From positions 1 to 48,495 of the forward strand of contig JAFQGY010000346.1 in the NCBI GenBank assembly GCA_017415325.1: 48,495 nucleotides of DNA, in the 5' to 3' direction. This stretch comes from Clostridia bacterium (lineage in GTDB: Bacteria; Bacillota; Clostridia; Oscillospirales; CAG-272). The position numbers and the translations under genes were made by a program. Positions within the stretch are counted from its first letter, which is position 1. Each line of letters opens with the position of its first letter. Of this stretch, positions 349-32,111 are shown in pieces. The notes under the pieces were generated by a model. The model was not told where the DNA came from. It saw only the letters and a list, made by a program, of their open reading frames with translations, and searched no databases.

Positions 349-349
349 T

Positions 350-3529: not shown

Positions 3530-3558
3530 TTGCATTTATACTGTTTGTGTGATATAAT
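3530..3558 (+). promoter_or_regulatory. SigA-type promoter of scaffoldin operon
   Basis: TTGCAT-17 nt-TATAAT with extended -10 TG. Confidence 0.7.
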
Positions 3559-3644: not shown

Positions 3645-4820
3645 ATGAAGAGAAGAATTTTCTGTGCTGTTATGACAGTGGTACTGGTGCTGACCATGCT
3701 GCCTGTCATCGTTGCTGCGGAAGGCGCCGTTGAAATCGCATTCACGCAGCGGGAAACCAAAGCAGGTGCCACACAGGTGCAGGTGGGCGTTGACATGAGC
3801 AACAACCCCGGTCTGGTTACCGCAACCATTCCCGTAACCTGGGACAATGATGTGCTGCATCTGGTGGATGTAATCCCGTCCGAAGACATTCTGTCCGCCG
3901 GTTGGATCGGCATGTCCATGGATGAATATGAATCCAACGGTACTTACTATCTGGCATGGGACAATGACCTGGCTGAAGCAGACTTCACCACGGAAGTAGG
4001 CTGTCTGGCTGAGCTGGTGTTTGATATTGTGGATCCTTCCAAGGATACCAATACCACTCTGGCGTTTGACATGGACGACCCCATTGCCAACGTGATGAAT
4101 TTTGATATGGAAGACCTGCGGGAAACCGTTACTGTGAATGCGGCAAACGGGACTGTTGCTGTTGCTGCGGAAGCAGGCGGGGATGATCCTGTGGTGGATC
4201 CGGAAAGTGCGCAGTTCTATATGCCTACTGTGGATAGAGTGCGGATGGGTGAACCCTTCTCTCTTCCTGTGGATCTTGTAAATAATGCAGGTCTGTCTTC
4301 TATCATCATTGATGTATACTACGATGCAGATGTTTTCAATTATGTTGATGCAGTATACGGAAGTGAGTTTTTGAAGCCGATTACGAATGCAATGACTGAC
4401 GCTGAAGGCAACCCATTCCTGAGATGTACGTGGGTTGATGGTCTCGAAAATATTGTTGGCGACAAAACTTTTGTAACACTGAATTTCCTTGTAAATGAAG
4501 GTGTTGAAGAAGGTTCTTACGAATTTGATATTGTATATGATCCTGACAATGTGTACATGGTAGAAGGTTATGATTACTATAATGTTGACATGGCTGTTGT
4601 AAAGGGTGTTGCGAATATTGTGGATTATATTCCCGGTGACATTGACGGTGACGGAAATGTAAACGCTAAGGACCAGGGGCGGCTGCTGCAGTATCTGGCA
4701 GGTCTGCCTGTAACTGTGGATGTAAAAGCACTTGATGTCAATGGTGACGGAAATGTAAACGCTAAGGACCAGGGGCGGTTGCTGCAGTATCTGGCAGGTC
4801 TGCCTGTGGAAATTTATTAA
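3645..4820 (+). CDS. Adaptor scaffoldin: signal peptide, cohesin A, cohesin B, dockerin
   Basis: RBS AAGGAGAGG; signal MKRRIFCAV. Two cohesin-like domains (VQVGVDMSNNPG..VTWDNDVL; LPVDLVNNAG..VYYDADVF). C-terminal duplicated dockerin GDIDGDGNVNAKD..LLQYLAG. Confidence 0.85.
   Translation: MKRRIFCAVMTVVLVLTMLPVIVAAEGAVEIAFTQRETKAGATQVQVGVDMSNNPGLVTATIPVTWDNDVLHLVDVIPSEDILSAGWIGMSMDEYESNGTYYLAWDNDLAEADFTTEVGCLAELVFDIVDPSKDTNTTLAFDMDDPIANVMNFDMEDLRETVTVNAANGTVAVAAEAGGDDPVVDPESAQFYMPTVDRVRMGEPFSLPVDLVNNAGLSSIIIDVYYDADVFNYVDAVYGSEFLKPITNAMTDAEGNPFLRCTWVDGLENIVGDKTFVTLNFLVNEGVEEGSYEFDIVYDPDNVYMVEGYDYYNVDMAVVKGVANIVDYIPGDIDGDGNVNAKDQGRLLQYLAGLPVTVDVKALDVNGDGNVNAKDQGRLLQYLAGLPVEIY
4647..4807 (+). 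repeat. 65-bp direct repeat (4647-4711, 4743-4807) encoding the two dockerin halves
   Basis: 64/65 nt identical; the only difference is CGGCTG vs CGGTTG. Confidence 0.95.
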
Positions 4821-4830
4821 GGAGTAAATA

Positions 4831-7800
4831 ATGAAAAAGAGTTTATCTGTTATTTTAGCAGTAATGCTCGTAATTTGTATGTTGCCTATCGGAGTATTGG
4901 CAGCTGGTGATCCTATTATGAATATCTCTGACGCTTCTGGTGAAAAAGGTCAGACGGTAAGCGTTAAGGTTGATCTGGAAAACAATCCTGGGATTGCTTC
5001 GTGCATTATTGATTTATATTATGATGGTACAGCATTTACATTTGATAGTGCTGAATATCACAGCAAGATTTCCAAGCCCATTACCAACGCCATGAATGAG
5101 AACGGAAAAAATTGGGTTCGGTTTACATGGGTAGATGGTATGGCAAATGTTACTGGCGATTTCACATTTGTGGATGTTAAATTTGTCATTAACGATGCAG
5201 CGGAATACAAGGAATATCCTCTGGATATCAAGTATAATCCGGAAGATGTATACATGGTTGAAGGATATGATTATTTCAATGTACCGTTCAGCATTGAAAA
5301 GGGTTCCATCACCGTAACCGAAAAGCCTAAGGCTGACTTCACTGAAGACATGTACCTCACTACCAACAAGACCAGCTACACCTATGGTGATACTGTTGCA
5401 GTATCCGTTGCCAATCTGGCTGACGGTGCTGATGTGAAGTACATTGTCAACGATGGCGAACCTGCCGATACCGTAAACATCAAGGATGCCGGTGAATACA
5501 CCATTTCCGCCGTTGTTTCCAAGGATGGTTACAATGATAAGGAACTGGATGCCATTACTGTAAAGATTGCCAAGAAGGACGTTACCATTTCCGGTATTAC
5601 TGCAGCAGACAAGACTTACGATGGTACTGCCAATGTTGATGTGGATACCACGAATGTGGTGATCAATGGAAAGGTTGAAGGGGATGATCTGGAGGCCGTG
5701 TTTCCTGAACCCTTCCAGCTCGACTCTGCCGATGCCGGTAATCGTTCTGTTGTGCTTGCTGGTACCAAGCTTGATGGTGATGCTGCTGATAATTATACGC
5801 TCACATCGGTCGAAGAAGTAACAATTGAAGTATCCAAGAGAGCAATCACTGTAAAGGCTGAAAATGATACCAAGAAAGTTGGAAACAGTGATCCCGATAA
5901 GTTCGTTGCGACTATCACAGAAGGTACTCTTGCTGATGGTCAGGATATCAAATATACTGTATCCAGAGAAGCAGGTGAAGAAGTTGGCAAGTATGCAATT
6001 ACACCTGTTGCTGAAATCACTGCCGATGATAAAGATGTAACGGCTAACTATGAGATTTCGTATCAGAACGGTATTTTTGAAATTATTGACAAGACGCTGA
6101 AGTCCATCGCAGTAACCACTCCTCCCACGGATGTTGAGTATGTTGTTGATGAAACACTGGATATTACCGGTATGGTTGTAACAGCTACATACGACAACGG
6201 TACTACTGATTCCGTGGACGCATATACTGTTCCTGAAAAGATTCAGTTCACAGAAGCTGATATCGGTGAAAAGGAAATTACTGTAAAGTACGGTGAAGCG
6301 ACAGCAACCTTTACAGTAACAGTTATCGCAAAGGAACTCCAGGGTATCACTGTGGATTCCTCCAAGGCAAAGACCGAATACATTGTTGGTCAGACCTTCT
6401 CTGCTGCAGGCCTGCTGGTATACCCTGTGTATAACAACAATGTAGAATATCCTGCGCTGGATTCTGCCGACTACACGGTGGAAGCCCCCGATATGGATAC
6501 TGTGGCAGATGACGCAGTTGCAACGGTTACTTACGAAGGTAAAACCCAGACATACAAGGTTGTTATCAAGGACAAGAGTCTGGAAAAGCAGCTGATTGTT
6601 ACTGAAAAGAACGCCGAAGACATCAAGAACGTTTATGTTGAAGGCAAGACATTCGATTCATCCAACCTGACTGTTACTGCAAAGTATAATAACGGTGATG
6701 AAGTTGTTGTAACCGACTTTACCGTAGAGCTCGCAGGCAGTCTGGCAGTTACAGATAAGTATGTAACTATCAGTTGGACTGATGAAGAACGTGGTCAGAC
6801 TGCTACTTACCAGTATGGCATTACTGTAAATGAAGCAGAAGTAGAGAGTTTCCTGTTTGTATCTTGGGAAAATGAATATATCGAAGATCAGGAATTTGAC
6901 GTTTCTTCTGTTGTTCTGGAAGTATTCTATAACAATGGAACTTCCAAAGAAGTAGTTAGTGGTTTTGCTGTTTCTCCGATGAGAATGACCACAGATATCA
7001 CTTATGTAACTGTTACATATGCTGGTATTTCCATGACAGCAGATGTTCAGGTTTCTGCCAAGGTTCTGGAAGACATTGCTGTTCCCGCAGCTGCTGCAAG
7101 ACAGTATGTTGAAGGCGACAGCTACAAGACTGCCTACATCAATTATATTGAAGCAACCTACAACAACGGTAAGACCTATATGCTGTCTCCTGCCAAGTAT
7201 ACGGTAGAACCGGAAATCATGGCAGTGGATACTACCGAACTGGTATTTACTTACACAGAAGGTGACGTTACCAAGACAGCGACACTGGCTGTAACTGTTC
7301 TGGAATGCGTAGCCACCAACGGTGACGACAGATACGCCAGCATCGTGGATGCTCTCAACGATGCAGAAGATGAAGATACCATCGACGTAATCGGTGAAGC
7401 TGTAATCGACGAAGATGTAATCATCAATGAAGACATCACTGTTGATGTTGATGAAGATGCTTCCCTTACCCAGGAAGAAGACACTGATATTACCGTTTCC
7501 GAAGGTTCTCTGACCATCGTGAACAACACCGAAGAAGATATTACTCTGACCATCAACGGTGAAGAAGTTACTATCGCTGCCGGTGAATCCTACACTGCTG
7601 AACCTGTTGTGGAAGAAGATGACGGCTTTGATGCTTACTATAGCTTCTACATGCAGATGCTCCAGTGGAGAAACCGTATCTTCAATATTAACTACAAGCA
7701 GACTGAAGGCGGTACCGTCTCCGGTCTGAAGAATGCCCGCATCGGCCAGACTGTAACTGTTACCATCACTCCCGACGAAGGCTATGCCATCGCAGATGTA

Positions 7801-8454
7801 CTGGTGAACGGCAAGTCTGTGGGTGCTGTGGAATCCTACAAGATTCGTAACATCAAGTCCAACCAGACCGTTTCCGCTGTATTCGAAAAGATCGCAGCAA
7901 CCAGTCCCTTCGTGGATGTTTCCGTAGACGCTCCTTACTTTGACGCTGTTCTGTACGTATACAACAACGGCATCATCAACGGCGTTTCCGAAACCGAAAT
8001 GGTATTCGCTCCCGACACCACCATGACCCGCGCTATGTTCGTTACCGTTCTGGGCAGAATGTCCGGCGTGAACATGGCTGACTACCCGGTTGTTACCTTT
8101 GCCGACTGCGAAGCCGGTTCCTGGTACGCTCCTTACGTAGAATGGGCCGCACAGGCTGGTATCGTGAAGGGCTACAGCGCAGAAGCCTTCGGTCCCATGG
8201 ACGAAATCACCGTGGAACAGGCTGCTGTAATCCTGTATCGCTACATTGCATACATGGGCTACAACACCGCTGCTGACGCTGATCTGGCGAACTACGCTGA
8301 CGGCGCACAGGTTTCCGAATGGGCTGCAGAACAGATGAAGTGGGCTCTGGCCAACAACATCTACGTTTCCGACACCACTCTGGATCCTCAGGCTCCCGCT
8401 GCACGTTCTCTGGTAGCCGAAATGCTGTACAACCTGTCCGTCTGGAGGGGCTGA
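4831..8454 (+). CDS. Anchor scaffoldin: cohesin B, YDG/MBG-like, five Ig-like repeats, SLH domains
   Basis: N-terminal cohesin (VKVDLENNPGIASCIIDLYYD); DKTYDG (YDG-like); KKVGNSDP..SREAGEEVGKY (MBG-like). Five repeats of Y..G.TF...G..V.A.YNNG. SLH motifs PFVDV, MTRAMFVTVLGR, ITVEQAAVILYR, RSLVAEMLYN. Confidence 0.87.
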   Translation: MKKSLSVILAVMLVICMLPIGVLAAGDPIMNISDASGEKGQTVSVKVDLENNPGIASCIIDLYYDGTAFTFDSAEYHSKISKPITNAMNENGKNWVRFTWVDGMANVTGDFTFVDVKFVINDAAEYKEYPLDIKYNPEDVYMVEGYDYFNVPFSIEKGSITVTEKPKADFTEDMYLTTNKTSYTYGDTVAVSVANLADGADVKYIVNDGEPADTVNIKDAGEYTISAVVSKDGYNDKELDAITVKIAKKDVTISGITAADKTYDGTANVDVDTTNVVINGKVEGDDLEAVFPEPFQLDSADAGNRSVVLAGTKLDGDAADNYTLTSVEEVTIEVSKRAITVKAENDTKKVGNSDPDKFVATITEGTLADGQDIKYTVSREAGEEVGKYAITPVAEITADDKDVTANYEISYQNGIFEIIDKTLKSIAVTTPPTDVEYVVDETLDITGMVVTATYDNGTTDSVDAYTVPEKIQFTEADIGEKEITVKYGEATATFTVTVIAKELQGITVDSSKAKTEYIVGQTFSAAGLLVYPVYNNNVEYPALDSADYTVEAPDMDTVADDAVATVTYEGKTQTYKVVIKDKSLEKQLIVTEKNAEDIKNVYVEGKTFDSSNLTVTAKYNNGDEVVVTDFTVELAGSLAVTDKYVTISWTDEERGQTATYQYGITVNEAEVESFLFVSWENEYIEDQEFDVSSVVLEVFYNNGTSKEVVSGFAVSPMRMTTDITYVTVTYAGISMTADVQVSAKVLEDIAVPAAAARQYVEGDSYKTAYINYIEATYNNGKTYMLSPAKYTVEPEIMAVDTTELVFTYTEGDVTKTATLAVTVLECVATNGDDRYASIVDALNDAEDEDTIDVIGEAVIDEDVIINEDITVDVDEDASLTQEEDTDITVSEGSLTIVNNTEEDITLTINGEEVTIAAGESYTAEPVVEEDDGFDAYYSFYMQMLQWRNRIFNINYKQTEGGTVSGLKNARIGQTVTVTITPDEGYAIADVLVNGKSVGAVESYKIRNIKSNQTVSAVFEKIAATSPFVDVSVDAPYFDAVLYVYNNGIINGVSETEMVFAPDTTMTRAMFVTVLGRMSGVNMADYPVVTFADCEAGSWYAPYVEWAAQAGIVKGYSAEAFGPMDEITVEQAAVILYRYIAYMGYNTAADADLANYADGAQVSEWAAEQMKWALANNIYVSDTTLDPQAPAARSLVAEMLYNLSVWRG

Positions 8455-8527: not shown

Positions 8528-8574
8528 AAAAGCGGTCGTTTCCCATGAGACAATTGGTGGAATCGGCCGCTTTT
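8528..8574 (+). terminator. Stem-loop between scaffoldin genes and the dockerin array
   Basis: AAAAGCGGTCG...CGGCCGCTTTT; a second hairpin (TCCCGG-AGCAATC-CCGGGA) lies at ~8480-8498. Confidence 0.6.
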
Positions 8575-8626
8575 GTCGGATTTTTGTGTTTTCACAGAAC
8601 AAGCTCACAAGAAAAAGGATGACAAT

Positions 8627-10654
8627 ATGATGAAACTGACCAAATGGATCGGTGTGCTGGCAGGGCTGGCGGCAGGGACTGTCATGATCACCGGCGCCGC
8701 AGCGGAAACCGTTCCGGAAACATTGTCCCTCCTGTACAAAGGAGATCTGGTGCCTGTGTTTTTTGATGCAGACCGGCAGGAGGCATTTACAGAACCACAG
8801 GCAATTGTCTATGATGCACTTGCGGATGCCGTGAATTCCGGCGCAGAACGGGTGTCTGTAGCGGATGCGGCATATACGGATGTGGCGGAACTGCATGCTT
8901 TCGTGCAGGAAACGCTGAATGTGGAAGTGTACTGGCCCCATGTGGAACGGGAAGTGCAGTATAGTACCGATGACCAGACCGGCGTGGTGACAGAACTGCT
9001 TCTGACCTACTCTGCGGACGACCGGTACAGCTTTTCCGGGGAAACCAGTGCGGCCGCCGGCATCACCACCATCGAACAGGGTGTGGCACATGCCATGGCA
9101 GCCATCCGGGACGATATGACCGATCTGGAAAAGGTGCTGGCGATCCACGATTATCTGGTGCGGGAAGTGGATTACGATCCGGGGTATCCGGACAATATCA
9201 ATGAAGACTCCTACTGGCTCGAGGGCGTTTTCCTGAACCGGATTGCCGTGTGCAACGGGTATGCGCTGGCCTATTCCCATCTTCTGAGCCAGTGCGGCAT
9301 TGACTCCTATGTGGTTTCCTCCGACCCCATGAACCATGCCTGGAACCTGATTGAGCTGGACGGAACCTGGTACCATGCCGACGCCACCTGGGACGACCCC
9401 TCCAATCAGTGCGGCGGATTTGTGTACCATAAGTATTTCCTGAAAAGCGATGCGGAATTTGAAAACGAACTGGGGCATTACAGCTGGGTAATCCAGAACA
9501 GCGGCGGAACAGCGGCACCGGAAGCCACCGTCAGCGACAGCTTTGCCGGATATGCTTTCCGGGAAACGGCGGATGATGTGCGTCCCGGGATGCTGAACGA
9601 GCTGGACGGCACCTATTACTACCTGTCAAACGTGTGGGGCAGCAATACCATGTATGTTTCCGACATCTCCCGTACGGAGGTACAGCAGATCACCCTGCCG
9701 GTAACGGTGGAGTTTCTGTTCCTGTATGACGGGAAACTGTACGGAAATACCGCCAGCCGGGTCTACGAAATGGATCTGGCGGGGAATATCCTCCGTACGG
9801 TAGCGGCCTCTCCGGAGCAGATCGTCAATTTCTGGCTGAAGCTGGATACGCTGTCCTATTGTGTGCAGCATGGGGACGGAACCCAGTCCGTTCTGGATGT
9901 GGATCTGGTGAACGGCGCCACAAACCTGATTACGGAAAACGGCCTGACCTATATCATTAACGGCGGAAAGGCCACCCTGGTGGAAGCGGACGAAACCATC
10001 ATCGATCTGACAGTGCCGGCAGCGGTAAGCGGATACCCGGTGACGGCCATCGGTGCCTCTGCCCTGGAAGGAAACCGGAATCTGGTAACTGTGTTTCTCC
10101 CGGATGGACTGGAAACCATCGGAAACAGAGCGTTCATGCAGACCGGTCTGAGAAGGGTGGGCATCCCGGCTTCTGTAACCTATATCGGCGACATGGCGTT
10201 CTGGAACAACTATTCCATGACCATGATGACGATCGAAGGGAATCTGGACTATCTGGGCAATGAAGCGTTCAAATACTGTTACAGACTGGCGAATGTCTGG
10301 TTTGACGGAAATGCGCCCAGAACCGTGGGCACAAATGTATTTACGGAATGCGACGCTGATTTTACCATCTATTATAATGTAGGAACCACCGGCTGGAGCA
10401 CTCCCACCTGGTCCCCCAATGCCAATGAAAGCTACAACGCTGTCATGCTCACTCCCGTAGGGGATCTGACCGGTAATGGTACGGTGGATCAGGAGGACGT
10501 TTCCATGATCTCCGACTGGTTCGCCGGGAAGTATGCCGAAGTGCCCTTTGAAACCTACAAGGCCGACTTCAACGGCGACGGGAAGTTCAGCCGGGCGGAC
10601 GGTATGTATCTGGCAAGAGCACTGGCGGGCTGGGAAGGATACACCCTGAGCTGA
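8627..10654 (+). CDS. Secreted transglutaminase-like + LRR (BspA-type) + dockerin protein
   Basis: Signal peptide; AVCNGYALAY..HAWNLIELDGTWYHADATWDD; LRR IGNRAF/IGDMAF; C-terminal dockerin GDLTGNG..DFNGDGKFSRAD. Confidence 0.85.
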   Translation: MMKLTKWIGVLAGLAAGTVMITGAAAETVPETLSLLYKGDLVPVFFDADRQEAFTEPQAIVYDALADAVNSGAERVSVADAAYTDVAELHAFVQETLNVEVYWPHVEREVQYSTDDQTGVVTELLLTYSADDRYSFSGETSAAAGITTIEQGVAHAMAAIRDDMTDLEKVLAIHDYLVREVDYDPGYPDNINEDSYWLEGVFLNRIAVCNGYALAYSHLLSQCGIDSYVVSSDPMNHAWNLIELDGTWYHADATWDDPSNQCGGFVYHKYFLKSDAEFENELGHYSWVIQNSGGTAAPEATVSDSFAGYAFRETADDVRPGMLNELDGTYYYLSNVWGSNTMYVSDISRTEVQQITLPVTVEFLFLYDGKLYGNTASRVYEMDLAGNILRTVAASPEQIVNFWLKLDTLSYCVQHGDGTQSVLDVDLVNGATNLITENGLTYIINGGKATLVEADETIIDLTVPAAVSGYPVTAIGASALEGNRNLVTVFLPDGLETIGNRAFMQTGLRRVGIPASVTYIGDMAFWNNYSMTMMTIEGNLDYLGNEAFKYCYRLANVWFDGNAPRTVGTNVFTECDADFTIYYNVGTTGWSTPTWSPNANESYNAVMLTPVGDLTGNGTVDQEDVSMISDWFAGKYAEVPFETYKADFNGDGKFSRADGMYLARALAGWEGYTLS

Positions 10655-10718
10655 TCGACGCAGGAATGTTCTGCCGGAGAAACCGGTTTTATAACAGGAA
10701 TCACAGAGGAATAGTCAC

Positions 10719-12656
10719 ATGAAACTTCAGAAAACCATATCTGTCCTGACGGCGCTGTTGCTGACGATGCAGTGTGCTGTTCTGCCTGCATGGGCGGAAT
10801 CTGCAGAACCGGTACCGGCAGGCAGTTATCAGATCAACCCCATCGGCAGTGACCTTCTTCCGGAAGATCTGCCGGAACCCGAGGGGGAACAGGGCGAAAC
10901 GCTGTTTGTGGAGCAGGCAGCAGTATATTACACGACCGTGGAAGACGCAGCCGATGCGATCATGGATGCCATGAAGAGACGGGAAGCGGCCATTTCCGTA
11001 GGTGTCACCCGGGAAGTGTACGATATTCTGAACAGCACGGATGCGCATCCCCATAACGTCCTTTTTGACGCAGCCTGCGAGCACGATCCGGACGACCCCA
11101 CCGCCGGGGACTATACCGGTCAGCTGTACCACTACTGGCAATCCGATGCAACCAGCTGGAACGGAAACAACGCCACAATTGTCTATCATGTTATCTACCG
11201 CACAACGCTGGCGGAAGAACAGCTGGTGGATGCCGCCGTGGCTGAACTGGTGGCCCAATGGACTGCTGCAGACATGGAACCATACGATACCATCTGTACG
11301 ATCTATGACTACATTACCGAAAACGTGGTGTATGACTATGCCGGTCTGGATGCAGGGGATCTGCATGTCTATACGGCGTACAAGGGTCTGATCGAGGGTA
11401 CCGCCGTATGCATGGGGATTGCCAATCTGTTCTACCGGCTGGCCATGGAAATGGGGATTGACGCCCGGATGATCCACAGTATTGATCGGGAAAACCATAC
11501 CTGGAACATCGTGGAATTGGACGGGCTGTACTACAATCTGGACGCCACATGGGATCTGGGAACGAATCCTGTTGCGTACAATTATTTCCTCCTGAGCCCG
11601 GAAATCTTCGGTATCGGCCACAACCGCCGGAGTGATTACGACACAGCAGCATTCCATCAGGCGTATCCCATGGACACTGTGGGGTATCTGCCCTTTGAGG
11701 GATCTGATTCCGGTACCTGCGGGGAAAACCTGACCTGGACCCTGACGGACGAGGGGATTCTGTCCATCGAAGGCACCGGTGCCATGTACGACTACAATTT
11801 CCGCCGGAACGGAGAGAACTGTTCCCCCTGGAGCCCCTGGACGGCAAAAATCACCGGACTGAACATCGGTGAGGGCGTGTCCTATCTGGGAAACTGGGCA
11901 TTTATGGAGTGCGTTGGTCTGGATTCCATTGCGATTCCCGGCAGTGTTGAGAGAATCGGATCCGGCACCTTTGCGTTCTGTGAATGGTATACGGAACTGA
12001 CGCTGTCGGAAGGACTGCAGCATATCGGCGGCATGGCGTTTTACGGCTCCAAAATCGATACGCTGAACCTTCCTTCCACGCTGCAGACCATTGGCAGTCA
12101 GGCGTTTTCCTCCTGTCTCCGGATCACGGAGCTGACCATTCCGGAAAATGTGACAAACATCGGCGACATGGCCTTCTCCTATAATACCTCTCTGGAAACC
12201 CTGCGGATTCTGGGGGATCTGGACTATCTGGGCGTGCAGGCGTTCTCCTGGTGTTATCCCCTGACCCGTGTGGAATTCCATGGGGGTGTGCCGGGGACAT
12301 GGTGGTCAGGACTGTTCAGTGAAAACGACCAGGATCCCGTGATTTATGCCGCCCGCAGCGATGCGTGGACTCCCTATGAGGGGACGGACGGCAGCCTGCT
12401 GTGGAATGCACCGGACGGAACGGCATACAAGTTTGAGTGGCTGGACGGGGAGGAGACCCCCGGCGACCTGACCGGTGACGGAAAGACGGACGAAGACGAT
12501 GCCGCCATGATTTCCGCCTGGTTTGCCGGCATGTACGCGGAAATTCCCTTTGACCCCGAAATGGCCGACTGCAACGGTGACGGAAAATTCACCCGGGCGG
12601 ACGGTATGTATCTGGCAAGAGCACTGGCAGGCTGGGAAGGATATACCCTGCCGTGA
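10719..12656 (+). CDS. Secreted transglutaminase-like + LRR + dockerin protein
   Basis: AVCMGIANLF..HTWNIVELDGLYYNLDATWD; LRR cap GTCGENLTWTL; LRR repeats; dockerin GDLTGDG..DCNGDGKFTRAD. Confidence 0.85.
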   Translation: MKLQKTISVLTALLLTMQCAVLPAWAESAEPVPAGSYQINPIGSDLLPEDLPEPEGEQGETLFVEQAAVYYTTVEDAADAIMDAMKRREAAISVGVTREVYDILNSTDAHPHNVLFDAACEHDPDDPTAGDYTGQLYHYWQSDATSWNGNNATIVYHVIYRTTLAEEQLVDAAVAELVAQWTAADMEPYDTICTIYDYITENVVYDYAGLDAGDLHVYTAYKGLIEGTAVCMGIANLFYRLAMEMGIDARMIHSIDRENHTWNIVELDGLYYNLDATWDLGTNPVAYNYFLLSPEIFGIGHNRRSDYDTAAFHQAYPMDTVGYLPFEGSDSGTCGENLTWTLTDEGILSIEGTGAMYDYNFRRNGENCSPWSPWTAKITGLNIGEGVSYLGNWAFMECVGLDSIAIPGSVERIGSGTFAFCEWYTELTLSEGLQHIGGMAFYGSKIDTLNLPSTLQTIGSQAFSSCLRITELTIPENVTNIGDMAFSYNTSLETLRILGDLDYLGVQAFSWCYPLTRVEFHGGVPGTWWSGLFSENDQDPVIYAARSDAWTPYEGTDGSLLWNAPDGTAYKFEWLDGEETPGDLTGDGKTDEDDAAMISAWFAGMYAEIPFDPEMADCNGDGKFTRADGMYLARALAGWEGYTLP

Positions 12657-12760
12657 CCTTCTGCCATGCGGCTTCCCGCTAAAACGGACGCCGGAACGCA
12701 AACTCCCATGCAATGGACATCTGTATCTGTGGGTACGGAGGTCCGGAAAGGAAACATATC

Positions 12761-15700
12761 ATGCAAATCAAAAAATGGTTGTCCCTGTTCACGGCGCTGC
12801 TTCTGGTGGTCCAGAGTGCGGTGGTACTGACAGGGGCGGAAGAACCCGCTGTTTCTCTGACAGATGTTTCTGCTGATCCCGGAGCGGCGGTGGTATACGA
12901 AGCAGAAGAAACGGCGGCAGCAGAACCGGGGACTTCCTCCACAGCCAGTGCCATGGCAGCAGCGGCGGCATCCGGTCTGTATATCACCGATTCCTATGTG
13001 AACCCGCTGTATGAAGGGCTGACCATCGGCGAACTGCCTGCCGACACAGCAGAATCCGGTTTCCGGCTGATGACGGAAGAAGCGGACGTTGTGTTCCACG
13101 ATACCGCAGAAGAAGCGGCGGAGGTTCTGCTGGATGGGATGAAAGCCAGAGAATCTGTCATTGTTCTGGGGGTTACTGCGGAACTGTATGACCGGCTGGC
13201 GGCCATCACCTCTGCCCACAAGGAAATTTTCTATGCGGCGTATGCCCATGACCCGGCAGACCCCACCGGCGGGGACTATATCCGGTTCACCTTCGGCGGA
13301 TGGAACGGTGCCGGTGTCAAGTCGGACGAAGGCTGGACGCTGACCTACTACTTTGATTACTACACCACGCTGGCAGAAGAAGAAGCTGTGGACGCCAAAG
13401 TGGAAGAGCTGACTGCAGCATGGAAAGCCATGGACATGACGGAGTATCAGATTGTCCGCACCATTTATGAATATATCACCGAAAACGTAACCTATGACGA
13501 TGCCGGTCTGACTGCCTACAGGAATGCCGTCAGCAGCGATACCCTGACCATGAACCACTGCAAGATCTTTACGGCGTACAAGGCACTGATCAAAGGTACG
13601 GCTGTATGCCAGGGATTTGCGAATCTGTTCTACCGGCTGGCGCTGGAGATGGGTGTGGATGCCCGGATTATCGCCAGTGTCAAAGCGGAAAACCATGCAT
13701 GGAATATCGTGAAGCTGGGCAGATGGTACTACAATGTGGACGCCACCTGGGATGCCGAAAACGTGGAAACGGGGTATCTGTGGTTCCTGCTGAACGAGGA
13801 GGAATTTTCCGTCAAGCACACCCGCCGGGCGGAATTTGATACGGAAGCATTCCATGAAGCGTATCCCATGGGGGAAAGTATGTATGTGGGCATCGATGAA
13901 ACCATGACCGGTGCCTGCGGGGACGGTGTATACTGGACATTGACAGCCGATGGAAATCTCATTATTTCCGGGAACGGAAAAACGGATGCGTTTACGCTGG
14001 AAGGAACCGCACCATGGTATCCATACCGGGAAAGTATCCGGTGTCTCACTGTGGAAGAAGGGGTTACGGAGATCGGATATGCAGCATTCTGTGACTGCAC
14101 CAGTCTGGAAAGTCTGTCTTTACATGACGGCATTACAGATATGCACCCTTATGTATTTTATAACTGCAAATCTCTTACGTCTTTCTCTCTGCCGGCAAGT
14201 TCCCCCTGTGTGAATGCCAATGTGTTTGAAGGCTGTACTTCCCTCAGAGATGTGTATCTGCATGACAATACCTATGTTATTTATTTTGAGGCATTCAAAG
14301 GCTGTACGGCATTGACGGAAATTGCTGTGCCGCAGGATGTTTTTATGATCGGAACGGGTGCATTTGAAGACTGTACCAATCTGGAAGGCATCTATTTCTA
14401 TGGCAGTGATTTCTATTTTGAAGGGAATTATGATTTCCTTGTCAACGTCACACCGACACTGTATTATGTTGCCGGGACTGCACACTGGGAAAACTGGCCG
14501 AATGCGGTACCGTTCGAACCGGATATGTCTCATGTACAACTGCCGGTTTCCGGAAAGTGCGGAGAAAATGTCACATGGACACTGGATCAGTACGGTGTTC
14601 TGACACTGTCCGGCACAGGAGAGACTGCGTGGAGTACGTACTCCGGGAATGCTCCCTGGTACAGCTACCGTTCTCTGATTCGGAAATTGGTTGTGGAAGA
14701 GGGGATAACTGTACTCAGCGATAGACTTGTCGATGACTGTGTCCGTTTGGAAGAAATAGAAATCAGCAGTTCTGTGACCGGGATAAAGGGGAGATTCTAT
14801 GGCTGTACGGCTATGGAAACCTTTGAATGGCCAGTATCCGGTACATCTGATTTTGGGATCGAATGCTGGCATTCCCTGAAGGAACTTCATATTCCGGATA
14901 CGGTAACAGAGCTCGGCTATATTACCCATTGTACTTCACTGGAAGAACTGCATATCCCGGCTGGGATTACTGCACTGAAGGCATTCGGGATCAATAATAA
15001 CCCGAATCTTCAGAAAATCTATTTTTACAGTACAGAGGATCCCGCCGGCTATTTCAGTGAGAATGCAATATACAACACCAATGCAACCCTGTATTATCCT
15101 GTAGGTGCGAAAGGTTGGACAGAACCGGAATGGACTGCTCCGGACGGAAGTGTATACAGAACGGAGATGTATGTGCCTGAGGATCATACACATACATACG
15201 AAATTACTGTAAAGATTGATCCGACATGTACGGAAGCAGGCAGCATTACGTATACCTGCCCGGTATGTAAGGATACCTATACCGAAGAAATTTCTCCCAA
15301 GGGGCATGCCTACGGTACTCTGGTGGTTGTGGAGTCCGCTACTGTTCTGGAGGAAGGCCGCGGATATTACCAGTGCGGGAACTGCGGCATCAGGCAGGAA
15401 AAGACAATCGCAAAGCTTACTGTGGATGCAAATGATCCGAATTATGGAATCGCATACTTTACAGTAATAGATGCAAACACACTGGAACCGCTGGAAAATA
15501 TCCATATTCTGGTGGCAACGGCCAAAGATGGTGAATGCACACTGACAACGGATGCATACGGAAAAGCGGCTCAGATTCTTCCTGTCGGCAAACAGAACAT
15601 CTCCGTGTATGCCAAGGGGTATCTGACCAGAAATCTGACCATTACCGTTGCTCTCGGTGAAAACAGTCTGCCGTATATTGGTATGAGTACCAAACCTGTT

Positions 15701-18166
15701 GTGGAGTCGGAAATCATCATCACGGAAATGACCCTGGAAGAAATCATAGACGCGGGTATTGATGTAGCAGACCCGGATAATACCCATATTTTCAAACATT
15801 CCGTGAAAATTACCTTTACTCCGGAAATAGATGTCATCTCCCTGGATGCCTATTTTGACGATACCGGGAAATATAAAGGAGGTTCCTATACGCCGCCGAG
15901 TGGTCCCAACAATGAAGACGGAGGCGGCGGTGGAGATGATGACCCCTCAGATGACGGATCCGAAGAAGAGGACCCCGATTCTCCTTCCGAATCAACGCCG
16001 GTACATAAGGATTTCACCGACAATAAATTCACATATCCTCAGAAAGATGGAACCATCATTTCTGTATATCCTGTTTCCGAAAAGTTTTATCTGATTGTGT
16101 ACGGGGAAACCAAGTGGCTCAAGGAAATGTTTGATGTGGAAATGCTGATTGTGAACAATTCCGGTGTGGATGCCCTGTACGATCTGGAAGCGGAAATTTC
16201 TCTCCCGGATGGTCTTGCGCTGGCAGATTTGGTGTCCGGTCAGCAGTCTGCTCTGGTTCCCCTGTCTTTTGTGGGGGTAAAGAGCCAGACATCCGTACAC
16301 TGGTATGTGCGCGGGGACGAAGAAGGCACCTATACCATTGACGCTTCTTTGCGGGGGCTTATCGGAGCATATGCACAGGAATTTGCATATACCTATACGT
16401 CTGATGCCATTCATGTATATGCCGGGAACGCACTGCATATGAATGTGATCCTGCCCTATTCCACGTATTACGGAGATGACTACACTGTCCGGATTGAACT
16501 GGAAAATGTTTCTCCAAGAACCTTGTATGGTGTCCGGTATACCATTCCCGGTCTGGAACAGGGACAGGCAGTGTGGTATCATGACGGTTCTGTGAAAGAA
16601 ACGGTTCTGCTGACTGCCGGCAATGCGGAAGTCATTCAGGCGGATACTTTCCTGCCGGGTGACAAGATTGTGGTGGAAGTGTCCAGTAATATTCTGTTCC
16701 AGTCAGAAATGATGGAATACCAGAAACAGAAGCTGGGCGAACAAATCGGCAGAACCAAAGCTATGGTGGAGCTGTACGATTATGCTTCCAAACTCATGGA
16801 AGTTGCGGAATTTGTGATTTCATTCAGCAAAGGAGCACTGATTGCTATTGGAGAATTTGTGCTGGAAGAAATTGTGGAAGAAGCTATGAAACCGGACGCC
16901 GAACTGCTGACGGCTGCCATAGAAAATATCGTACGGATTGCATCGGAAGATGCCAGTGCAGCTTCTCTGGATACCATGATGCGTCTGCAGTCCAATGAAT
17001 TGTACGGTGGTCTGGCAGACAGTCTGGCAAGTCCGGAACAGTATACAGCATACCTGAATTCGCTGTCCGGTAACCATTTGAAAGCTCTTGCCGCCTCTGT
17101 TGCGGTGCTTAGCCTGCAGCTGGAAGCATCTGATGTGAGTGATATTCTGGATTCCATTCGTACTATGGTAGAAGCACTTCCCGTGGCATTCTTCGTGGAA
17201 GATGTGGTGGTATCTACGCTGGACGGATCTACAACGTCCATTCCGTACACCATTAGTCTGGACACTACCAAAAAAGTGCAGTATTTCGGAATCGACAGCA
17301 TGGACGATTACCTGCGCAGTATGCTGATTGCAGCGGTAGGGAAAACAAAGGAACCGTTGTATCAGAATATCCGGATTGAGTCGGATATCAAGGATTATAA
17401 GTCGGCCGAAAAATATCTGAAGATCCAGAAGGAACAGATTGCCGCATTCTCAGCAGCGGATGCTACCGGCGAAACCGAATTCAAAATGTATCTTGTATCG
17501 GAGGACGGGCAGAGATCGGCAGCAGAACTGACAGAACGGTTTACGGTTTCCTGTACCAACGATACAGCGGCATATTCCAACGGAGTGCTGTCCTTCACTG
17601 GCGGCGCCATGCTGGAACTGCTTCCTACAGGAGATATGGGCGGCACAGTATGTGTGACTGCCAACGATCAGGTGCTGCGTACCTATACTATCGAAGTGGT
17701 TGAAACCCATACCTGCACTTCTGATACATGGGTCATTGAACAGTGCCAGACAGAAAGTTATGCCGGTCTGCGGGCCAAATACTGCGATATCTGTGAGCAG
17801 ACAATTGTTCTGGAACCCATCGCCCCCTGTGAGGAGCATATCTGGGGAGAAACAGTTGTAGAAGTAAAAGCAGCAGAAGATATGGACGGAATTTCCTACC
17901 AGGCGTGCGAAACCTGCGGACACCGGACATATGCGTTTTATGCATACCAGCCGGAACCGGAAAGACCTGTGGGCGACTTCACCGGTGACGGAGAGGTCAC
18001 ACTGGAAGACGCCGACCTGCTTGCGGAGTATTTTGCCGGATATCCGGTACAGATTGACAAAGCGGCCGCTGACATCAACGGCGACGGCAAGCTGACCCGT
18101 GCGGATGCGATGATCCTGAAACGGTATCTGGCCGGCTGGGCGGGATATGACCGGTACTTCGGCTGA
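12761..18166 (+). CDS. Large secreted transglutaminase-like + 2 LRR blocks + Cys/His repeats + beta-sandwich region + dockerin protein
   Basis: RBS AAAGGA; AVCQGFANLF..HAWNIVKLGRWYYNVDATWD; two G.CG..V.W.L LRR caps; HTHTY..PTCTEAG..CPVC repeats; dockerin GDFTGDG..DINGDGKLTRAD. Confidence 0.85.
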   Translation: MQIKKWLSLFTALLLVVQSAVVLTGAEEPAVSLTDVSADPGAAVVYEAEETAAAEPGTSSTASAMAAAAASGLYITDSYVNPLYEGLTIGELPADTAESGFRLMTEEADVVFHDTAEEAAEVLLDGMKARESVIVLGVTAELYDRLAAITSAHKEIFYAAYAHDPADPTGGDYIRFTFGGWNGAGVKSDEGWTLTYYFDYYTTLAEEEAVDAKVEELTAAWKAMDMTEYQIVRTIYEYITENVTYDDAGLTAYRNAVSSDTLTMNHCKIFTAYKALIKGTAVCQGFANLFYRLALEMGVDARIIASVKAENHAWNIVKLGRWYYNVDATWDAENVETGYLWFLLNEEEFSVKHTRRAEFDTEAFHEAYPMGESMYVGIDETMTGACGDGVYWTLTADGNLIISGNGKTDAFTLEGTAPWYPYRESIRCLTVEEGVTEIGYAAFCDCTSLESLSLHDGITDMHPYVFYNCKSLTSFSLPASSPCVNANVFEGCTSLRDVYLHDNTYVIYFEAFKGCTALTEIAVPQDVFMIGTGAFEDCTNLEGIYFYGSDFYFEGNYDFLVNVTPTLYYVAGTAHWENWPNAVPFEPDMSHVQLPVSGKCGENVTWTLDQYGVLTLSGTGETAWSTYSGNAPWYSYRSLIRKLVVEEGITVLSDRLVDDCVRLEEIEISSSVTGIKGRFYGCTAMETFEWPVSGTSDFGIECWHSLKELHIPDTVTELGYITHCTSLEELHIPAGITALKAFGINNNPNLQKIYFYSTEDPAGYFSENAIYNTNATLYYPVGAKGWTEPEWTAPDGSVYRTEMYVPEDHTHTYEITVKIDPTCTEAGSITYTCPVCKDTYTEEISPKGHAYGTLVVVESATVLEEGRGYYQCGNCGIRQEKTIAKLTVDANDPNYGIAYFTVIDANTLEPLENIHILVATAKDGECTLTTDAYGKAAQILPVGKQNISVYAKGYLTRNLTITVALGENSLPYIGMSTKPVVESEIIITEMTLEEIIDAGIDVADPDNTHIFKHSVKITFTPEIDVISLDAYFDDTGKYKGGSYTPPSGPNNEDGGGGGDDDPSDDGSEEEDPDSPSESTPVHKDFTDNKFTYPQKDGTIISVYPVSEKFYLIVYGETKWLKEMFDVEMLIVNNSGVDALYDLEAEISLPDGLALADLVSGQQSALVPLSFVGVKSQTSVHWYVRGDEEGTYTIDASLRGLIGAYAQEFAYTYTSDAIHVYAGNALHMNVILPYSTYYGDDYTVRIELENVSPRTLYGVRYTIPGLEQGQAVWYHDGSVKETVLLTAGNAEVIQADTFLPGDKIVVEVSSNILFQSEMMEYQKQKLGEQIGRTKAMVELYDYASKLMEVAEFVISFSKGALIAIGEFVLEEIVEEAMKPDAELLTAAIENIVRIASEDASAASLDTMMRLQSNELYGGLADSLASPEQYTAYLNSLSGNHLKALAASVAVLSLQLEASDVSDILDSIRTMVEALPVAFFVEDVVVSTLDGSTTSIPYTISLDTTKKVQYFGIDSMDDYLRSMLIAAVGKTKEPLYQNIRIESDIKDYKSAEKYLKIQKEQIAAFSAADATGETEFKMYLVSEDGQRSAAELTERFTVSCTNDTAAYSNGVLSFTGGAMLELLPTGDMGGTVCVTANDQVLRTYTIEVVETHTCTSDTWVIEQCQTESYAGLRAKYCDICEQTIVLEPIAPCEEHIWGETVVEVKAAEDMDGISYQACETCGHRTYAFYAYQPEPERPVGDFTGDGEVTLEDADLLAEYFAGYPVQIDKAAADINGDGKLTRADAMILKRYLAGWAGYDRYFG

Positions 18167-18223
18167 AACAGGGATCGTGCCGCAGATTGTCCTGCATATT
18201 TGCAATTTTGTATATCCTTCCGA

Positions 18224-18270
18224 AACACCATGGGGGAGAAGGCCTCTCCTGTGGTGTTTTGTTTTTTGTT
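18224..18270 (+). terminator. Intrinsic terminator
   Basis: AACACCATGGGGGAG-AAGGC-CTCTCCTGTGGTGTT followed by T tract. Confidence 0.8.
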
Positions 18271-18400
18271 TTTCGGTAAACTGCCAAATTTTTCTATACC
18301 GGTATATGATGGACAGATGGTGTCCATGCAGAATGGTATAATAGAAACAACATCAGAATGCCGGACGTTCGGCTTTTGGAGAGGGAAGGAGAGTATTTGT

Positions 18401-22678: not shown

Positions 22679-22702
22679 ACTCCGATACAATCCAATACCC
22701 TG

Positions 22703-22743
22703 GCAGCACCTTCGGATCCTTTCTTCCGGAGGTGCTGTTTTTT
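22703..22743 (+). terminator. Intrinsic terminator
   Basis: GCAGCACCTTCGGA...TCCGGAGGTGCTGT followed by TTTTT. Confidence 0.8.
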
Positions 22744-22771
22744 AAAATGGCCATTAAATACCGAAATTCTC

Positions 22772-22800
22772 TTGAAAAATATAGGTGAATATGTTATACT
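22772..22800 (+). promoter_or_regulatory. SigA-type promoter
   Basis: TTGAAA-17 nt-TATACT with extended -10 TG. Confidence 0.7.
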
Positions 22801-22839
22801 GATTTCCGGAGAATTTTAATTCATAAGGAGAGGTTTGTT

Positions 22840-25929: not shown

Positions 25930-25964
25930 TTTGTACCGGATATCTGAATAAAACCGGAACAAAA

Positions 25965-26181
25965 CCGCTCCTGTGGGACAAACCTGCGGGGGCGGGTTTT
26001 GTTTGTGCAGATAAAATGTATTTTTTATCAAACAACTTGCGGAAAGAATAGTTTTGTGCTATACTGTTGGGGAACAACAATACAGGAGGACAACAGAGGG
26101 ATATGAAGACAATGAAAAAACTGCTGCTTGCGGCCGGGATGCTGGCACTGCTGATGCTGCCGGTGCAGGCGGAGGATGCTG
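25965..26181 (+). repeat. 217-bp repeat (terminator-promoter-RBS-signal peptide), copy 1; copy 2 at 28960-29176, partial copy at 32006-32047
   Basis: Near-identical sequence CCGCTCCTGTGGGACAAACCTGCG...GGAGGATGCTG on visual alignment. Confidence 0.92.
26037..26065 (+). promoter_or_regulatory. SigA-type promoter (duplicated at ~29032-29060)
   Basis: TTGCGG-17 nt-TATACT with extended -10 TG; the copy reads TTGCAG-17-TATACT. Confidence 0.65.
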
Positions 26182-28931: not shown

Positions 28932-29001
28932 GGAAAAACCAATACAGCCAAAACCAAATCCGCTCCTGTGGGACAAACCTGCGAGGGCGGGTTTTGTTTG
29001 T
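28734..29001 (+). repeat. 268-bp repeat (dockerin + terminator), copy 1; copy 2 at 31780-32047; related dockerin 3' half at ~22590-22678
   Basis: Long identical runs such as CCCGGAAGGATGTCATGATTCTCGCCCGGTATCTGGCCGGATGGGATGGGTATGACCAGTA in three genes. Confidence 0.92.
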
Positions 29002-29097
29002 GCAGATAAAATGTATTTTTCATCAAACAACTTGCAGGAAGAATAGTTTTGTGCTATACTATTGGGGAACAACAATACAGGAGGACAACAGAGGATT

Positions 29098-31977: not shown

Positions 31978-32111
31978 GGAAAACCCTATACAGCCATAAC
32001 CGAATCCGCTCCTGTGGGACAAACCTGCGGGGGCGGGTTTTGTTTGTTTTTGGGAGTAATTAATCTGCCTTTAAAAAATCATGGCCAAAGGGATTTTTCT
32101 GATAAAATCGC

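What the first reader, a model, noticed from the sequence alone, without database searches (positions are those of the whole stretch)
3645..5320. Adaptor scaffoldin may polymerise head-to-tail
Seen: adaptor cohesin 2 closely matches the single anchor cohesin (KPITNAM, TWVDG..N..GD.TFV, VYMVEGYDY.NV shared), while cohesin 1 is a different type. The adaptor dockerin (AK/AK at positions 10-11) differs from all effector dockerins. Inference: only two cohesin types are encoded locally and the adaptor carries both. Whichever its dockerin binds, it can also bind another adaptor. If it binds type B, a chain could grow from the anchor with one cohesin-A slot per subunit, giving variable valency from a 391-aa protein.
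Basis: partly seen in the sequence, partly recalled or inferred. Interest (0 to 1): 0.82.

Follow-up and report, generated by a model that had tools for sequence, protein, structure and literature searches.

The report
Self-linking scaffoldin with a swappable cassette
A small secreted adaptor protein of an animal-gut bacterium carries both a plug and a matching socket, so it can probably chain onto itself from a cell-wall anchor, and the matching parts are exchanged between strains as one block.

Summary
The window encodes a 391-aa adaptor (signal peptide, Coh1, Coh2, symmetric dockerin). Ten bases downstream lies a 1207-aa SLH anchor with one N-terminal cohesin. Coh2 and the anchor cohesin are 49% identical (E 7e-34). 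Coh1 is a separate type. These are the only three cohesins found in the 92%-complete genome. The adaptor dockerin is unlike the other 17 dockerins.

In near-identical strains Coh1 and the SLH end stay 93-100% identical. A 3451-base block (window 4193-7643: Coh2, dockerin, anchor cohesin and stalk) is replaced by unrelated alleles. Within each allele Coh2 resembles its own anchor cohesin, most strongly on the dockerin-binding strands (64% vs 27% in the window). Across alleles those strands are the least alike (14% vs 21%). A cargo dockerin is unchanged in a strain with a different allele.

So cargo most likely docks on Coh1, and the adaptor dockerin on the anchor cohesin and on Coh2, which permits head-to-tail chains. 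Binding itself is untested: the one complex prediction gave no verdict. Self-recognising cohesin-dockerin proteins are already known (R. bromii Amy4). This is a new variant of that kind.

The parts
3530..3558 (+). Possible promoter: TTGCAT, 17 nt, then TGaTATAAT (extended -10)
   Evidence: Read by eye. The consensus scan did NOT list it, because the -35 hexamer matches only 3 of 6. Weak.
3645..4820 (+). Adaptor scaffoldin gene, 391 aa; Shine-Dalgarno AGGAGAGG 6 nt upstream
   Evidence: The same protein lies on a second contig of 49,108 nt (P0002).
3645..3722 (+). Signal peptide (aa 1-26, ...VIVAA/EG)
   Evidence: Sequence reading and helix 2-17 in the model. No signal-peptide predictor was run.
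3723..4169 (+). Coh1 (type A), the conserved cargo port
   Evidence: PF00963 22.6 bits, under the cut-off. Cohesin fold by Foldseek. 93-100% identical in strains P0003-P0006. Face strands 70% vs back strands 53% mean identity among 14 adaptors.
4170..4211 (+). Coh1-Coh2 linker (EAGGDDPVVDPES...); the left cassette boundary lies at 4192/4193
   Evidence: pLDDT <50 at aa 177-183. Joint in an X5 contig. Boundary maps to aa 183.
4212..4622 (+). Coh2 (type B), the proposed socket for the adaptor's own dockerin
   Evidence: PF00963 34.3 bits. pLDDT 83-93. 49% identical to the anchor cohesin. Sister to it in the tree, 99/95.
4632..4817 (+). Adaptor dockerin: two near-identical repeats, A-K at positions 10-11, about 4-5 residues after Coh2 strand 9
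4831..8454 (+). Anchoring scaffoldin gene, 1207 aa; starts 10 nt after the adaptor stop, with AAGGAG upstream
4903..5310 (+). Anchor cohesin (type B')
   Evidence: PF00963 45.2 bits. Custom HMM E 1.2e-39.
4193..7643 (.). Strain-variable cassette: Coh2 + dockerin + intergenic spacer + anchor signal peptide, cohesin and YDG/MBG/Big_3 stalk
   Evidence: An X5 contig joins window 4192 to 7644 with 3998 other letters in place of 3451. Protein identity falls to 20-40% inside the block. GC is 0.36-0.51 inside and 0.52-0.59 in the flanks.
7900..8451 (+). SLH cell-wall binding region of the anchor (conserved)
   Evidence: PF00395 with 2 stretches, the best at aa 1091-1132. 98-100% identical in P0043 and P0044. 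The start coordinate is approximate.
8563..8579 (+). Terminator-like hairpin after the anchor gene
   Evidence: The number of such sites in the region is not above shuffles (3 vs 4.0).
8627..36945 (+). Eight consecutive cargo genes, each ending in an asymmetric dockerin (BspA-type LRR, some with a transglutaminase-like core)
   Evidence: The gene at 29062-31977 was not scanned against Pfam.
41902..43557 (-). Ninth cargo gene in the window, with an N-terminal dockerin

Best explanation
This is a two-gene, apparently co-transcribed surface-display system of an uncultured gut Oscillospiraceae bacterium. It is not a cellulosome.

Proposed mechanism:
- Seventeen cargo proteins carry asymmetric dockerins. 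Those scanned are BspA-type LRR proteins, some with transglutaminase-like cores. They plug into the conserved Coh1 of the adaptor.
- The adaptor's own symmetric dockerin plugs into type-B cohesins. There are two of these: the cohesin at the tip of the SLH anchor, and the adaptor's own Coh2.
- Adaptors can therefore concatenate head-to-tail from one anchor. Each added unit offers one more Coh1 slot.

The interface that builds the chain (Coh2, dockerin, anchor cohesin) lies with the anchor stalk in one 3.45-kb block. Strains exchange this block as a unit between the conserved Coh1 and SLH flanks.

Shown: the domain architecture, the cassette and its boundaries, the within-cassette likeness of Coh2 and the anchor cohesin, and the constancy of Coh1 and of one cargo dockerin. 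Inferred: who binds whom, and polymerisation itself.
For: 1. Only three cohesins and one odd dockerin are found in G000. The congener G382 likewise has exactly three cohesins.

2. Adaptors P0003-P0006 are 93-100% identical to the window's over aa 1-180 and 20-40% after that. Anchors P0043 and P0044 are 20-40% identical over about aa 1-900 and 98-100% at the SLH end.

3. One X5 contig joins window 4192 to 7644 with 3998 foreign letters in between. X15 contigs break at 4216 and 7644.

4. All 4 of 4 same-locus pairs fall in the same cohesin-type clade, and the window pair are sisters at 99/95. The labels Coh2 and anchor are interleaved on the tree: 9 and 8 changes, no better than shuffled.

5. 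Identity on the 8-3-6-5 strands versus the other strands in same-locus pairs is 64/27 (p=0.0004), 44/32, 49/28 and 44/40. In 156 non-same-locus pairs it is 13.8/21.0. That sheet is the dockerin-interacting plateau (PMC5934362 passages).

6. Among 14 adaptors the Coh1 face strands are 70% identical and the back strands 53%. For Coh2 the figures are 14% and 25%.

7. P0180 lies on the same 9972-nt contig as the P0003/P0043 cassette. It is 91.6% identical to window cargo e2, and its last 80 aa, dockerin included, are identical. 1 of 1 cargo compared.

8. Six of 7 G382 dockerins are of the same cargo type.

9. In 16 of 16 adaptors the two dockerin repeats are 61-96% alike. Between adaptors the dockerins average 32% identity.

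10. Cohesins that cluster together on different scaffoldins share a dockerin group in R. flavefaciens (PMC5301203 passages).
Against: - No binding or oligomer data exist.
- 16 of 45 face-strand positions differ between Coh2 and the anchor cohesin, so the dockerin could tell them apart.
- The face/back contrast is significant only in the window pair (p=0.0004). The other three give p=0.28, 0.07 and 0.83.
- Two of the four pairs are matched only by equal contig length.
- Coh2, the dockerin and the anchor cohesin are physically contiguous, so they would be inherited together with or without a shared function.
- The stalk varies too, so the variation could be driven by surface exposure (phage, host) rather than by binding specificity.
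- Only one cargo dockerin, of the GYTLP/S subgroup, was compared across cassettes within the species. The GYDQYF subgroup was not.
- Strand numbers come from DSSP order on an AF2 model. Sheet membership was not checked on coordinates.
- G000 is 92% complete. Divergent ruminococcal cohesins are reported to escape sequence searches (PMC13463774, abstract start in the listing).
Confidence: 0.55

Rival explanations
1. Classical two-tier system without polymerisation. The adaptor dockerin binds only the anchor cohesin. Coh2 has drifted to another specificity and holds a subset of the cargo, for example one of the two cargo-dockerin subgroups.
For: This is the usual arrangement for polyvalent adaptors (PMC11557425 passages). 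The cargo dockerins fall into at least two sequence subgroups, with ...GYTLP/S and ...GYDQYF tails, and the adaptor has two cohesin types. 16 of 45 face-strand positions differ between Coh2 and the anchor cohesin.
Against: Coh2 is replaced between strains while a cargo dockerin stays identical. The Coh2 face is its least conserved part between adaptors (14%), whereas cargo dockerins are of one family in both G000 and G382. Coh2 is closest to its own anchor cohesin in 4 of 4 loci.
Confidence: 0.2
2. The dockerin binds Coh2, but the product is closed: an intramolecular fold-back or a reciprocal dimer or ring. This would cap or store the adaptor rather than build open chains from the anchor.
For: The same evidence that Coh2 and the dockerin match. 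The symmetric dockerin could dock in either orientation (PMC12484212 passages). Nothing here excludes rings.
Against: The spacer between Coh2 strand 9 and the first Ca loop is only about 4-5 residues and has the same length in all 15 aligned adaptors. By inference, not by modelling, this makes a fold-back onto the same domain's face hard. An anchor carrying the same cohesin type would have no role if all dockerins were consumed in closed forms.
Confidence: 0.12
3. The Coh2/anchor-cohesin likeness is a by-product of repeated duplication or gene conversion between neighbouring genes inside a fast-evolving, surface-exposed block. Coh2 would then be vestigial or bind something unrelated.
For: The two cohesins lie about 300 bp apart. 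The whole exposed part of the anchor varies, not only the cohesin. The block has lower GC and mosaic boundaries: 7306 in X4 and X8, 7644 in X5 and X15.
Against: Conversion would homogenise all strands alike. Instead the likeness is concentrated on the binding face in the window pair (64 vs 27, p=0.0004). In the beta type the Coh2s and the anchor cohesins form separate sub-clades, so the likeness is old and has been maintained. Coh2 is kept in 16 of 16 adaptors.
Confidence: 0.06
4. The adaptor dockerin binds Coh1 (type A) and cargo binds the type-B cohesins.
For: In beta-type cassettes the adaptor dockerin resembles the second repeat of cargo dockerins.
Against: Coh1 is nearly invariant while the adaptor dockerin is hypervariable. 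Type-B cohesins are hypervariable while cargo dockerins are conserved. The adaptor would also have no link to the anchor.
Confidence: 0.03

Closest known systems
Ruminococcus bromii Amy4 (Sca1) of the amylosome
   Same: One polypeptide carries a cohesin and a C-terminal dockerin. The cohesin was shown to bind Amy4's own dockerin, and multimerisation was proposed (PMC4611034 passages). The protein aggregated in SEC unless the dockerin was deleted (PMC12663171 passages).
   Different: Amy4 is a GH13 amylase with a single cohesin that also takes other enzymes' dockerins. Here the protein has no enzyme domain. It has a second, orthogonal cohesin reserved (by inference) for cargo, a dedicated SLH anchor with the same socket to seed the chain, and a strain-variable interface. 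Sequence relation is limited to the dockerin family: R. bromii Amy12 chain 9qfa_A matches the adaptor dockerin at E 2.6e-6.
Ruminococcus flavefaciens ScaA-ScaB assembly
   Same: A scaffoldin's unique dockerin (lone member of its group) binds only scaffoldin cohesins (PMC5934362 passages). ScaB carries two cohesin types, one of them shared in sequence and specificity with ScaA (PMC5301203 passages). Strain plasticity of the sca cluster is noted (PMC4081043 passages).
   Different: The ScaA dockerin is asymmetric and binds in a single mode, and ScaA does not carry the cohesin type that its own dockerin binds. Anchoring there is by sortase (ScaE), the cargo is glycoside hydrolases, and there are many cohesins per scaffoldin.
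Clostridial adaptor and SLH-anchoring scaffoldins (Acetivibrio and Pseudobacteroides types)
   Same: A polyvalent adaptor (cohesins plus a dockerin) docks on an SLH-anchored cohesin (PMC11557425 passages). The cohesin fold is closest to type I cohesins: 6kgf_A, 3ul4_A and 4ums, TM 0.76-0.79 on the target. The dockerin is closest in sequence to symmetric type I dockerins: 6kg9_A E 4.7e-8, 5nrk_B.
   Different: There are only two scaffoldin genes and three cohesins. No glycoside hydrolase was found in the 8 of 9 window cargo proteins scanned. The adaptor carries the anchor's own cohesin type.
Archaeoglobus fulgidus cohesin-dockerin proteins
   Same: Ze et al. cite them as non-cellulosomal cohesin-dockerin pairs presumed to multimerise (reference list seen; the statement). 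The A. fulgidus cohesin 2xdh is a structural match, TM 0.78 on the target.
   Different: Archaeal, with no anchor/adaptor pair. The details are recalled; I did not read them here.

Membership tests
Cohesin-dockerin scaffoldin system (adaptor plus anchoring scaffoldin) | Cohesin modules (nine-strand beta-sandwich) | tested here: met
   PF00963: 45.2 bits (anchor), 34.3 bits (Coh2), 22.6 bits (Coh1, under the 24.1 cut-off). Foldseek gives type I and II cohesins at prob 1.00. DSSP shows nine strands in Coh2.
Cohesin-dockerin scaffoldin system (adaptor plus anchoring scaffoldin) | Dockerin with two Ca-binding repeats on the adaptor and on the cargo | tested here: met
   PF00404 matches 18 of 96 candidate places. 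The sequences show D-x-D/N-x-D...D loops.
Cohesin-dockerin scaffoldin system (adaptor plus anchoring scaffoldin) | Cell-wall anchoring module on a cohesin-bearing protein | tested here: met
   PF00395 SLH, E 2.4e-13, two stretches at the C-terminus of the anchor.
Cohesin-dockerin scaffoldin system (adaptor plus anchoring scaffoldin) | Specific Ca-dependent cohesin-dockerin binding | not testable with these tools
   The only complex job gave no verdict. This needs ELISA, ITC or native PAGE.
Cellulosome in the strict sense | Dockerin-borne plant-cell-wall glycoside hydrolases | tested here: not met
   Of the 9 window cargo proteins, the 8 scanned show LRR_5, Transglut_core and Dockerin_1 only. 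The 8 dockerin proteins on other contigs and the gene at 29062-31977 were not scanned.
Self-recognising cohesin-dockerin proteins (Amy4-like homo-polymerisers) | Cohesin and dockerin on one polypeptide | tested here: met
   (15 of 15 aligned adaptors) and the adaptor in L034.
Self-recognising cohesin-dockerin proteins (Amy4-like homo-polymerisers) | The protein's cohesin binds its own dockerin in trans | not testable with these tools
   Supported only indirectly, by cassette co-variation and face identity.
Self-recognising cohesin-dockerin proteins (Amy4-like homo-polymerisers) | Homology to Amy4 (GH13 catalytic module) | tested here: not met
   No catalytic domain in the 391-aa adaptor. It works like Amy4 at most; it is not a member of that family.
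Dual-binding-mode (symmetric) dockerins | Two repeats with the same recognition residues | tested here: met
   23/27 identical in the window, 61-96% in 16 of 16 adaptors, against 26-48% in the G000 cargo dockerins. The criterion is from PMC12484212 and PMC5934362 passages.
Dual-binding-mode (symmetric) dockerins | Binding in two orientations 180 degrees apart | not testable with these tools
   Needs structures or mutants.

The most novel reading that the evidence does not exclude
Gut Oscillospiraceae of this genus hold a natural library of mutually orthogonal, self-polymerising cohesin-dockerin cassettes. Each cassette comprises Coh2, a symmetric dockerin and the anchor cohesin. Cassettes are exchanged by recombination at the conserved Coh1 and SLH flanks. 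Every strain would then build a private, variable-length scaffold filament from two genes while keeping one universal cargo port. A strain's secreted, cargo-loaded adaptors could not be captured by a neighbour's anchors.
Probability: 0.3. Interest if true: 0.8.

Novelty: new variant of a known kind. Interest (0 to 1): 0.62.

Why it matters
If the chain model holds, valency is set by polymerising a 391-aa unit, not by stringing many cohesins on one giant scaffoldin. That would be a compact solution to displaying 17 or more large adhesin-like proteins.

The strain-variable cassettes would be ready-made orthogonal cohesin-dockerin pairs, and at least four types are seen here. Designer-scaffold work needs such pairs.

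The pattern of a conserved cargo port next to a swapped assembly interface also gives a sequence-only way to assign cohesin-dockerin partners in uncultured organisms.

If the model fails, this is an ordinary two-tier, non-cellulolytic cohesin-dockerin system with a hypervariable surface stalk.

Tried and rejected
- Complex prediction. Chains were Coh1 27-170, Coh2 174-325 (made the longest so that the control would replace it) and the dockerin 326-391 as partner. Scores were 0.12 and 0.14 against a mark of 0.34. The result was no verdict and the controls were not run, so it counts neither for nor against binding.
- The search for related loci in metagenome contigs with A1: 186 pattern matches, none confirmed. 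In genome contigs: only L034 and L035.
- Family-wide genome search with Coh1: 34 of 401 genomes matched at E<=1e-5. Only G382 is a close relative (49%). The other matches have different architectures and were not followed.
- Promoter scan: the by-eye promoter at 3530-3558 was not listed, and site counts are not above shuffles.
- Pfam on the N-terminal cargo module and on the body of the 41902-43557 protein: no family at E<=1.
- Coverage gaps in the laid runs are not used as evidence of absence. Only the X5 joint and the loose ends are used.
- X15 is an RNA library, and its contigs cover the Coh1 and SLH flanks at 90-99% likeness. The tool warns that this does not show transcription. I treat it as a hint only.
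- Literature. Searches found no paper describing an enzyme-free polymerising adaptor or strain-swapped cohesin-dockerin cassettes. That holds only for those term sets and for the held library. PMC13463774 had none of the six terms I asked for.
- I considered folding the Coh2-dockerin fragment alone. I dropped it because the tool returns no coordinates or contacts, so it could not separate cis from trans.


Full report
WHAT IS THERE

The finding's coordinates hold two adjacent genes on the + strand.
- Gene 3645-4820 encodes a 391-aa protein. It has a signal-peptide-like N-terminus, two cohesins and a C-terminal dockerin (Pfam).
- Gene 4831-8454 starts 10 nt after the first gene's stop, behind its own AAGGAG. 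It encodes a 1207-aa protein with an N-terminal cohesin, then YDG, MBG_2, Big_3 and Flg_new_2 modules, then C-terminal SLH repeats.

hmmscan of the whole anchor did not list Cohesin. The six-frame search did, at 45.2 bits, and a custom HMM gave E 1.2e-39. An AF2 model of the adaptor (mean pLDDT 78.7, pTM 0.47) matches solved type I and II cohesins at Foldseek probability 1.00. By sequence, only the dockerin finds solved relatives, and these are symmetric type I dockerins.

THE OBSERVATION

Coh2 and the anchor cohesin are 49% identical over 122 aa (E 6.6e-34). Coh1 has no BLAST match to either. The quoted shared motifs and the A-K at positions 10-11 of both dockerin repeats are in the sequence.

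In the whole assembly (3.87 Mb, 433 contigs, 92% complete) these are the only cohesins found. Pfam matched 3 of 5 candidates. tblastn and two custom HMMs over 16,302 ORFs found no more.

Pfam finds 18 dockerins among 96 candidates: ten in the window and eight elsewhere. Seventeen are an asymmetric type whose second repeat ends in AGW(D/E)GY-like tails. The adaptor's is the only symmetric one, with repeats 23/27 identical against 26-48% for the others.

Cargo proteins are BspA-type LRR proteins, some with a transglutaminase-like core. No glycoside hydrolase was found in the 8 of 9 window cargo proteins scanned.

THE NEW FACT: A STRAIN-VARIABLE CASSETTE

Fourteen full-length relatives of the adaptor exist in public assemblies, and all keep Coh1-Coh2-dockerin. 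Four of them (P0003-P0006) are 93-100% identical to the window protein over aa 1-180. They then drop abruptly to 20-40%.

Anchor relatives show the mirror image. P0043 and P0044 are 20-40% identical over about 900 residues and 98-100% over the SLH end.

At DNA level, one contig of run X5 (5241 nt) matches window 3600-4192 and 7644-7797, and carries 3998 other letters where the window has 3451. Contigs of X15 break at 4216 and 7644. Contigs of X4 and X8 break at 7306.

The block 4193-7643 has GC 0.36-0.51 against 0.52-0.59 in the flanks. Its left edge falls in the Coh1-Coh2 linker (aa 183) and its right edge at anchor aa 938.

So Coh2, the dockerin, the anchor cohesin and the stalk are exchanged as one unit, while Coh1 and the SLH region stay fixed.

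WHO BINDS WHOM (INFERENCE)

(a) Within a cassette, Coh2 resembles its own anchor cohesin. Four same-locus pairs are available:
- the window;
- P0003/P0043 and P0006/P0044, paired by equal contig lengths of 9972 and 48906;
- L034, where both genes are on one locus and the adaptor gene recurs letter for letter in G382:C19.

In the first three pairs the best anchor hit of Coh2 among 10 anchors was its own, a tie in the case of P0003. In a tree of 27 cohesins all four pairs fall in the same type clade. P0014 was dropped from the tree as identical to P0013, and two Coh1 sequences were added. The window pair are sisters (99/95). Coh2s and anchor cohesins are fully interleaved, with 9 and 8 label changes, no better than shuffled.

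(b) The likeness sits on the binding face. I numbered strands by DSSP on the model. I took the 8-3-6-5 sheet as the dockerin plateau (PMC5934362 passages). Same-locus pairs are 64/27, 44/32, 49/28 and 44/40% identical on face versus back strands. The 156 other Coh2-by-anchor pairs average 13.8/21.0. Only the window pair is individually significant (p=0.0004).

(c) Coh1 behaves the opposite way. Among 14 adaptors its face strands are 70% identical and its back strands 53%. For Coh2 the figures are 14% and 25%.

(d) Cargo dockerins follow Coh1, not Coh2. P0180 lies on the contig that carries the P0003/P0043 cassette. It is 91.6% identical to window cargo e2, and its last 80 residues, dockerin included, are identical. 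G382 has another cassette type, yet 6 of its 7 Pfam-detected dockerins are of the same cargo type. It also has exactly three cohesins.

(e) The only dockerin that varies with the cassette is the adaptor's. It stays internally symmetric in 16 of 16 adaptors.

The simplest reading is that cargo docks on Coh1, and that the adaptor dockerin docks on the anchor cohesin and equally on Coh2.

The 4-5-residue spacer between Coh2 and the dockerin has a constant length in 15 of 15 aligned adaptors. By inference this makes trans docking more likely than fold-back.

WHAT IS NOT SHOWN

No binding, stoichiometry or oligomer was observed. The complex prediction gave no verdict.

The three swapped modules are contiguous, so co-inheritance alone needs no function. 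The stalk varies as well, so exposure to phage or host could drive the diversity. Only one cargo dockerin was compared within the species. A fourth, divergent cohesin could hide in the missing 8% of the genome, or beyond sequence detection (PMC13463774, abstract start only).

COMPARISON WITH WHAT IS KNOWN

Self-recognising cohesin-dockerin proteins are in print. The R. bromii Amy4 cohesin binds Amy4's own dockerin (PMC4611034 passages). Amy4 aggregated in SEC unless its dockerin was removed (PMC12663171 passages). Ze et al. also cite archaeal cases.

Other parallels:
- A scaffoldin with a unique dockerin that binds only scaffoldin cohesins, and an adaptor carrying two cohesin types, are known in R. 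flavefaciens (PMC5934362; PMC5301203).
- Strain plasticity of the R. flavefaciens sca cluster is noted (PMC4081043 passages).
- Symmetric dockerins are associated with dual binding (PMC12484212 passages).

What differs here:
- an enzyme-free adaptor that carries both the anchor's socket and an orthogonal cargo port;
- a minimal three-cohesin system;
- adhesin-like rather than glycoside-hydrolase cargo;
- an assembly interface packaged in a recombining cassette with at least four types.

Searches found no description of such a cassette. That holds only within those terms and the held library, and supplements were closed.

VERDICT

It is a new variant of a known kind. Confidence in the full chain model is about 0.55. 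Interest is 0.62.

Noticed in passing
window 18200-22678, 22840-25929, 32194-36945: Cargo proteins carry repeated modules of about 170-240 aa (W..DG...EGEY...MSWD.DYLYTY). They have no Pfam match at E<=1. A language-model look-up places them nearest CBM9-like clusters: score 0.95, 25 of 30 hits. This is a lead only. The cargo may be glycan-binding adhesins.
   Followed up: partly
window 41902-43557 (-): The ninth cargo protein has its dockerin at the N-terminus. The repeat order is inverted relative to the others: the TRKDAMILRRYHAGWEGY-type repeat comes first. The rest of the protein has no Pfam family.
   Followed up: partly
P0003 and L034 10001-11224 (beta-type cassettes): Their adaptor dockerins have a 13-residue first loop (GDG..ATP.D) and helices (DAMYLARYIAGW.GYDE) that look like a duplicated second repeat of cargo dockerins. 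The Pfam search of G382 did not list this dockerin at E<=0.01. In the tree the beta-type cohesins sit next to the Coh1 clade (83/91).
   Followed up: partly
P0008: This adaptor's Coh2 groups with Coh1 (97/94; 31-33% identity), and its dockerin has W..Y tails like cargo dockerins. In this lineage the cargo port and the chain socket may not be orthogonal.
   Followed up: no
window 6291-7306 in runs X4 and X8: The right cassette boundary differs between strains: 7306 in X4 and X8, 7644 in X5 and X15. X4 also holds short pieces matching 6291-6619 and 7059-7229. The stalk appears to be mosaic.
   Followed up: no
L035 10001-10795: In a more distant genome, a 264-aa protein has a Coh1-like cohesin (39% identity) and no dockerin. 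Its relatives carry PF13620. The next ORF of at least 150 aa on the same strand (10956-14609) shows no cohesin or SLH motifs by eye in the stretches printed (N-terminal 200 aa and last 90 aa).
   Followed up: no
window 275-349 (+): tRNA-Asn (GTT) near the start of the window.
   Followed up: yes
window 4831-8451: hmmscan of the full-length anchor did not report its cohesin at E<=0.01. The six-frame search with the same family scored it at 45.2 bits. This is a reminder that whole-protein scans of long repetitive proteins can drop a domain.
   Followed up: yes
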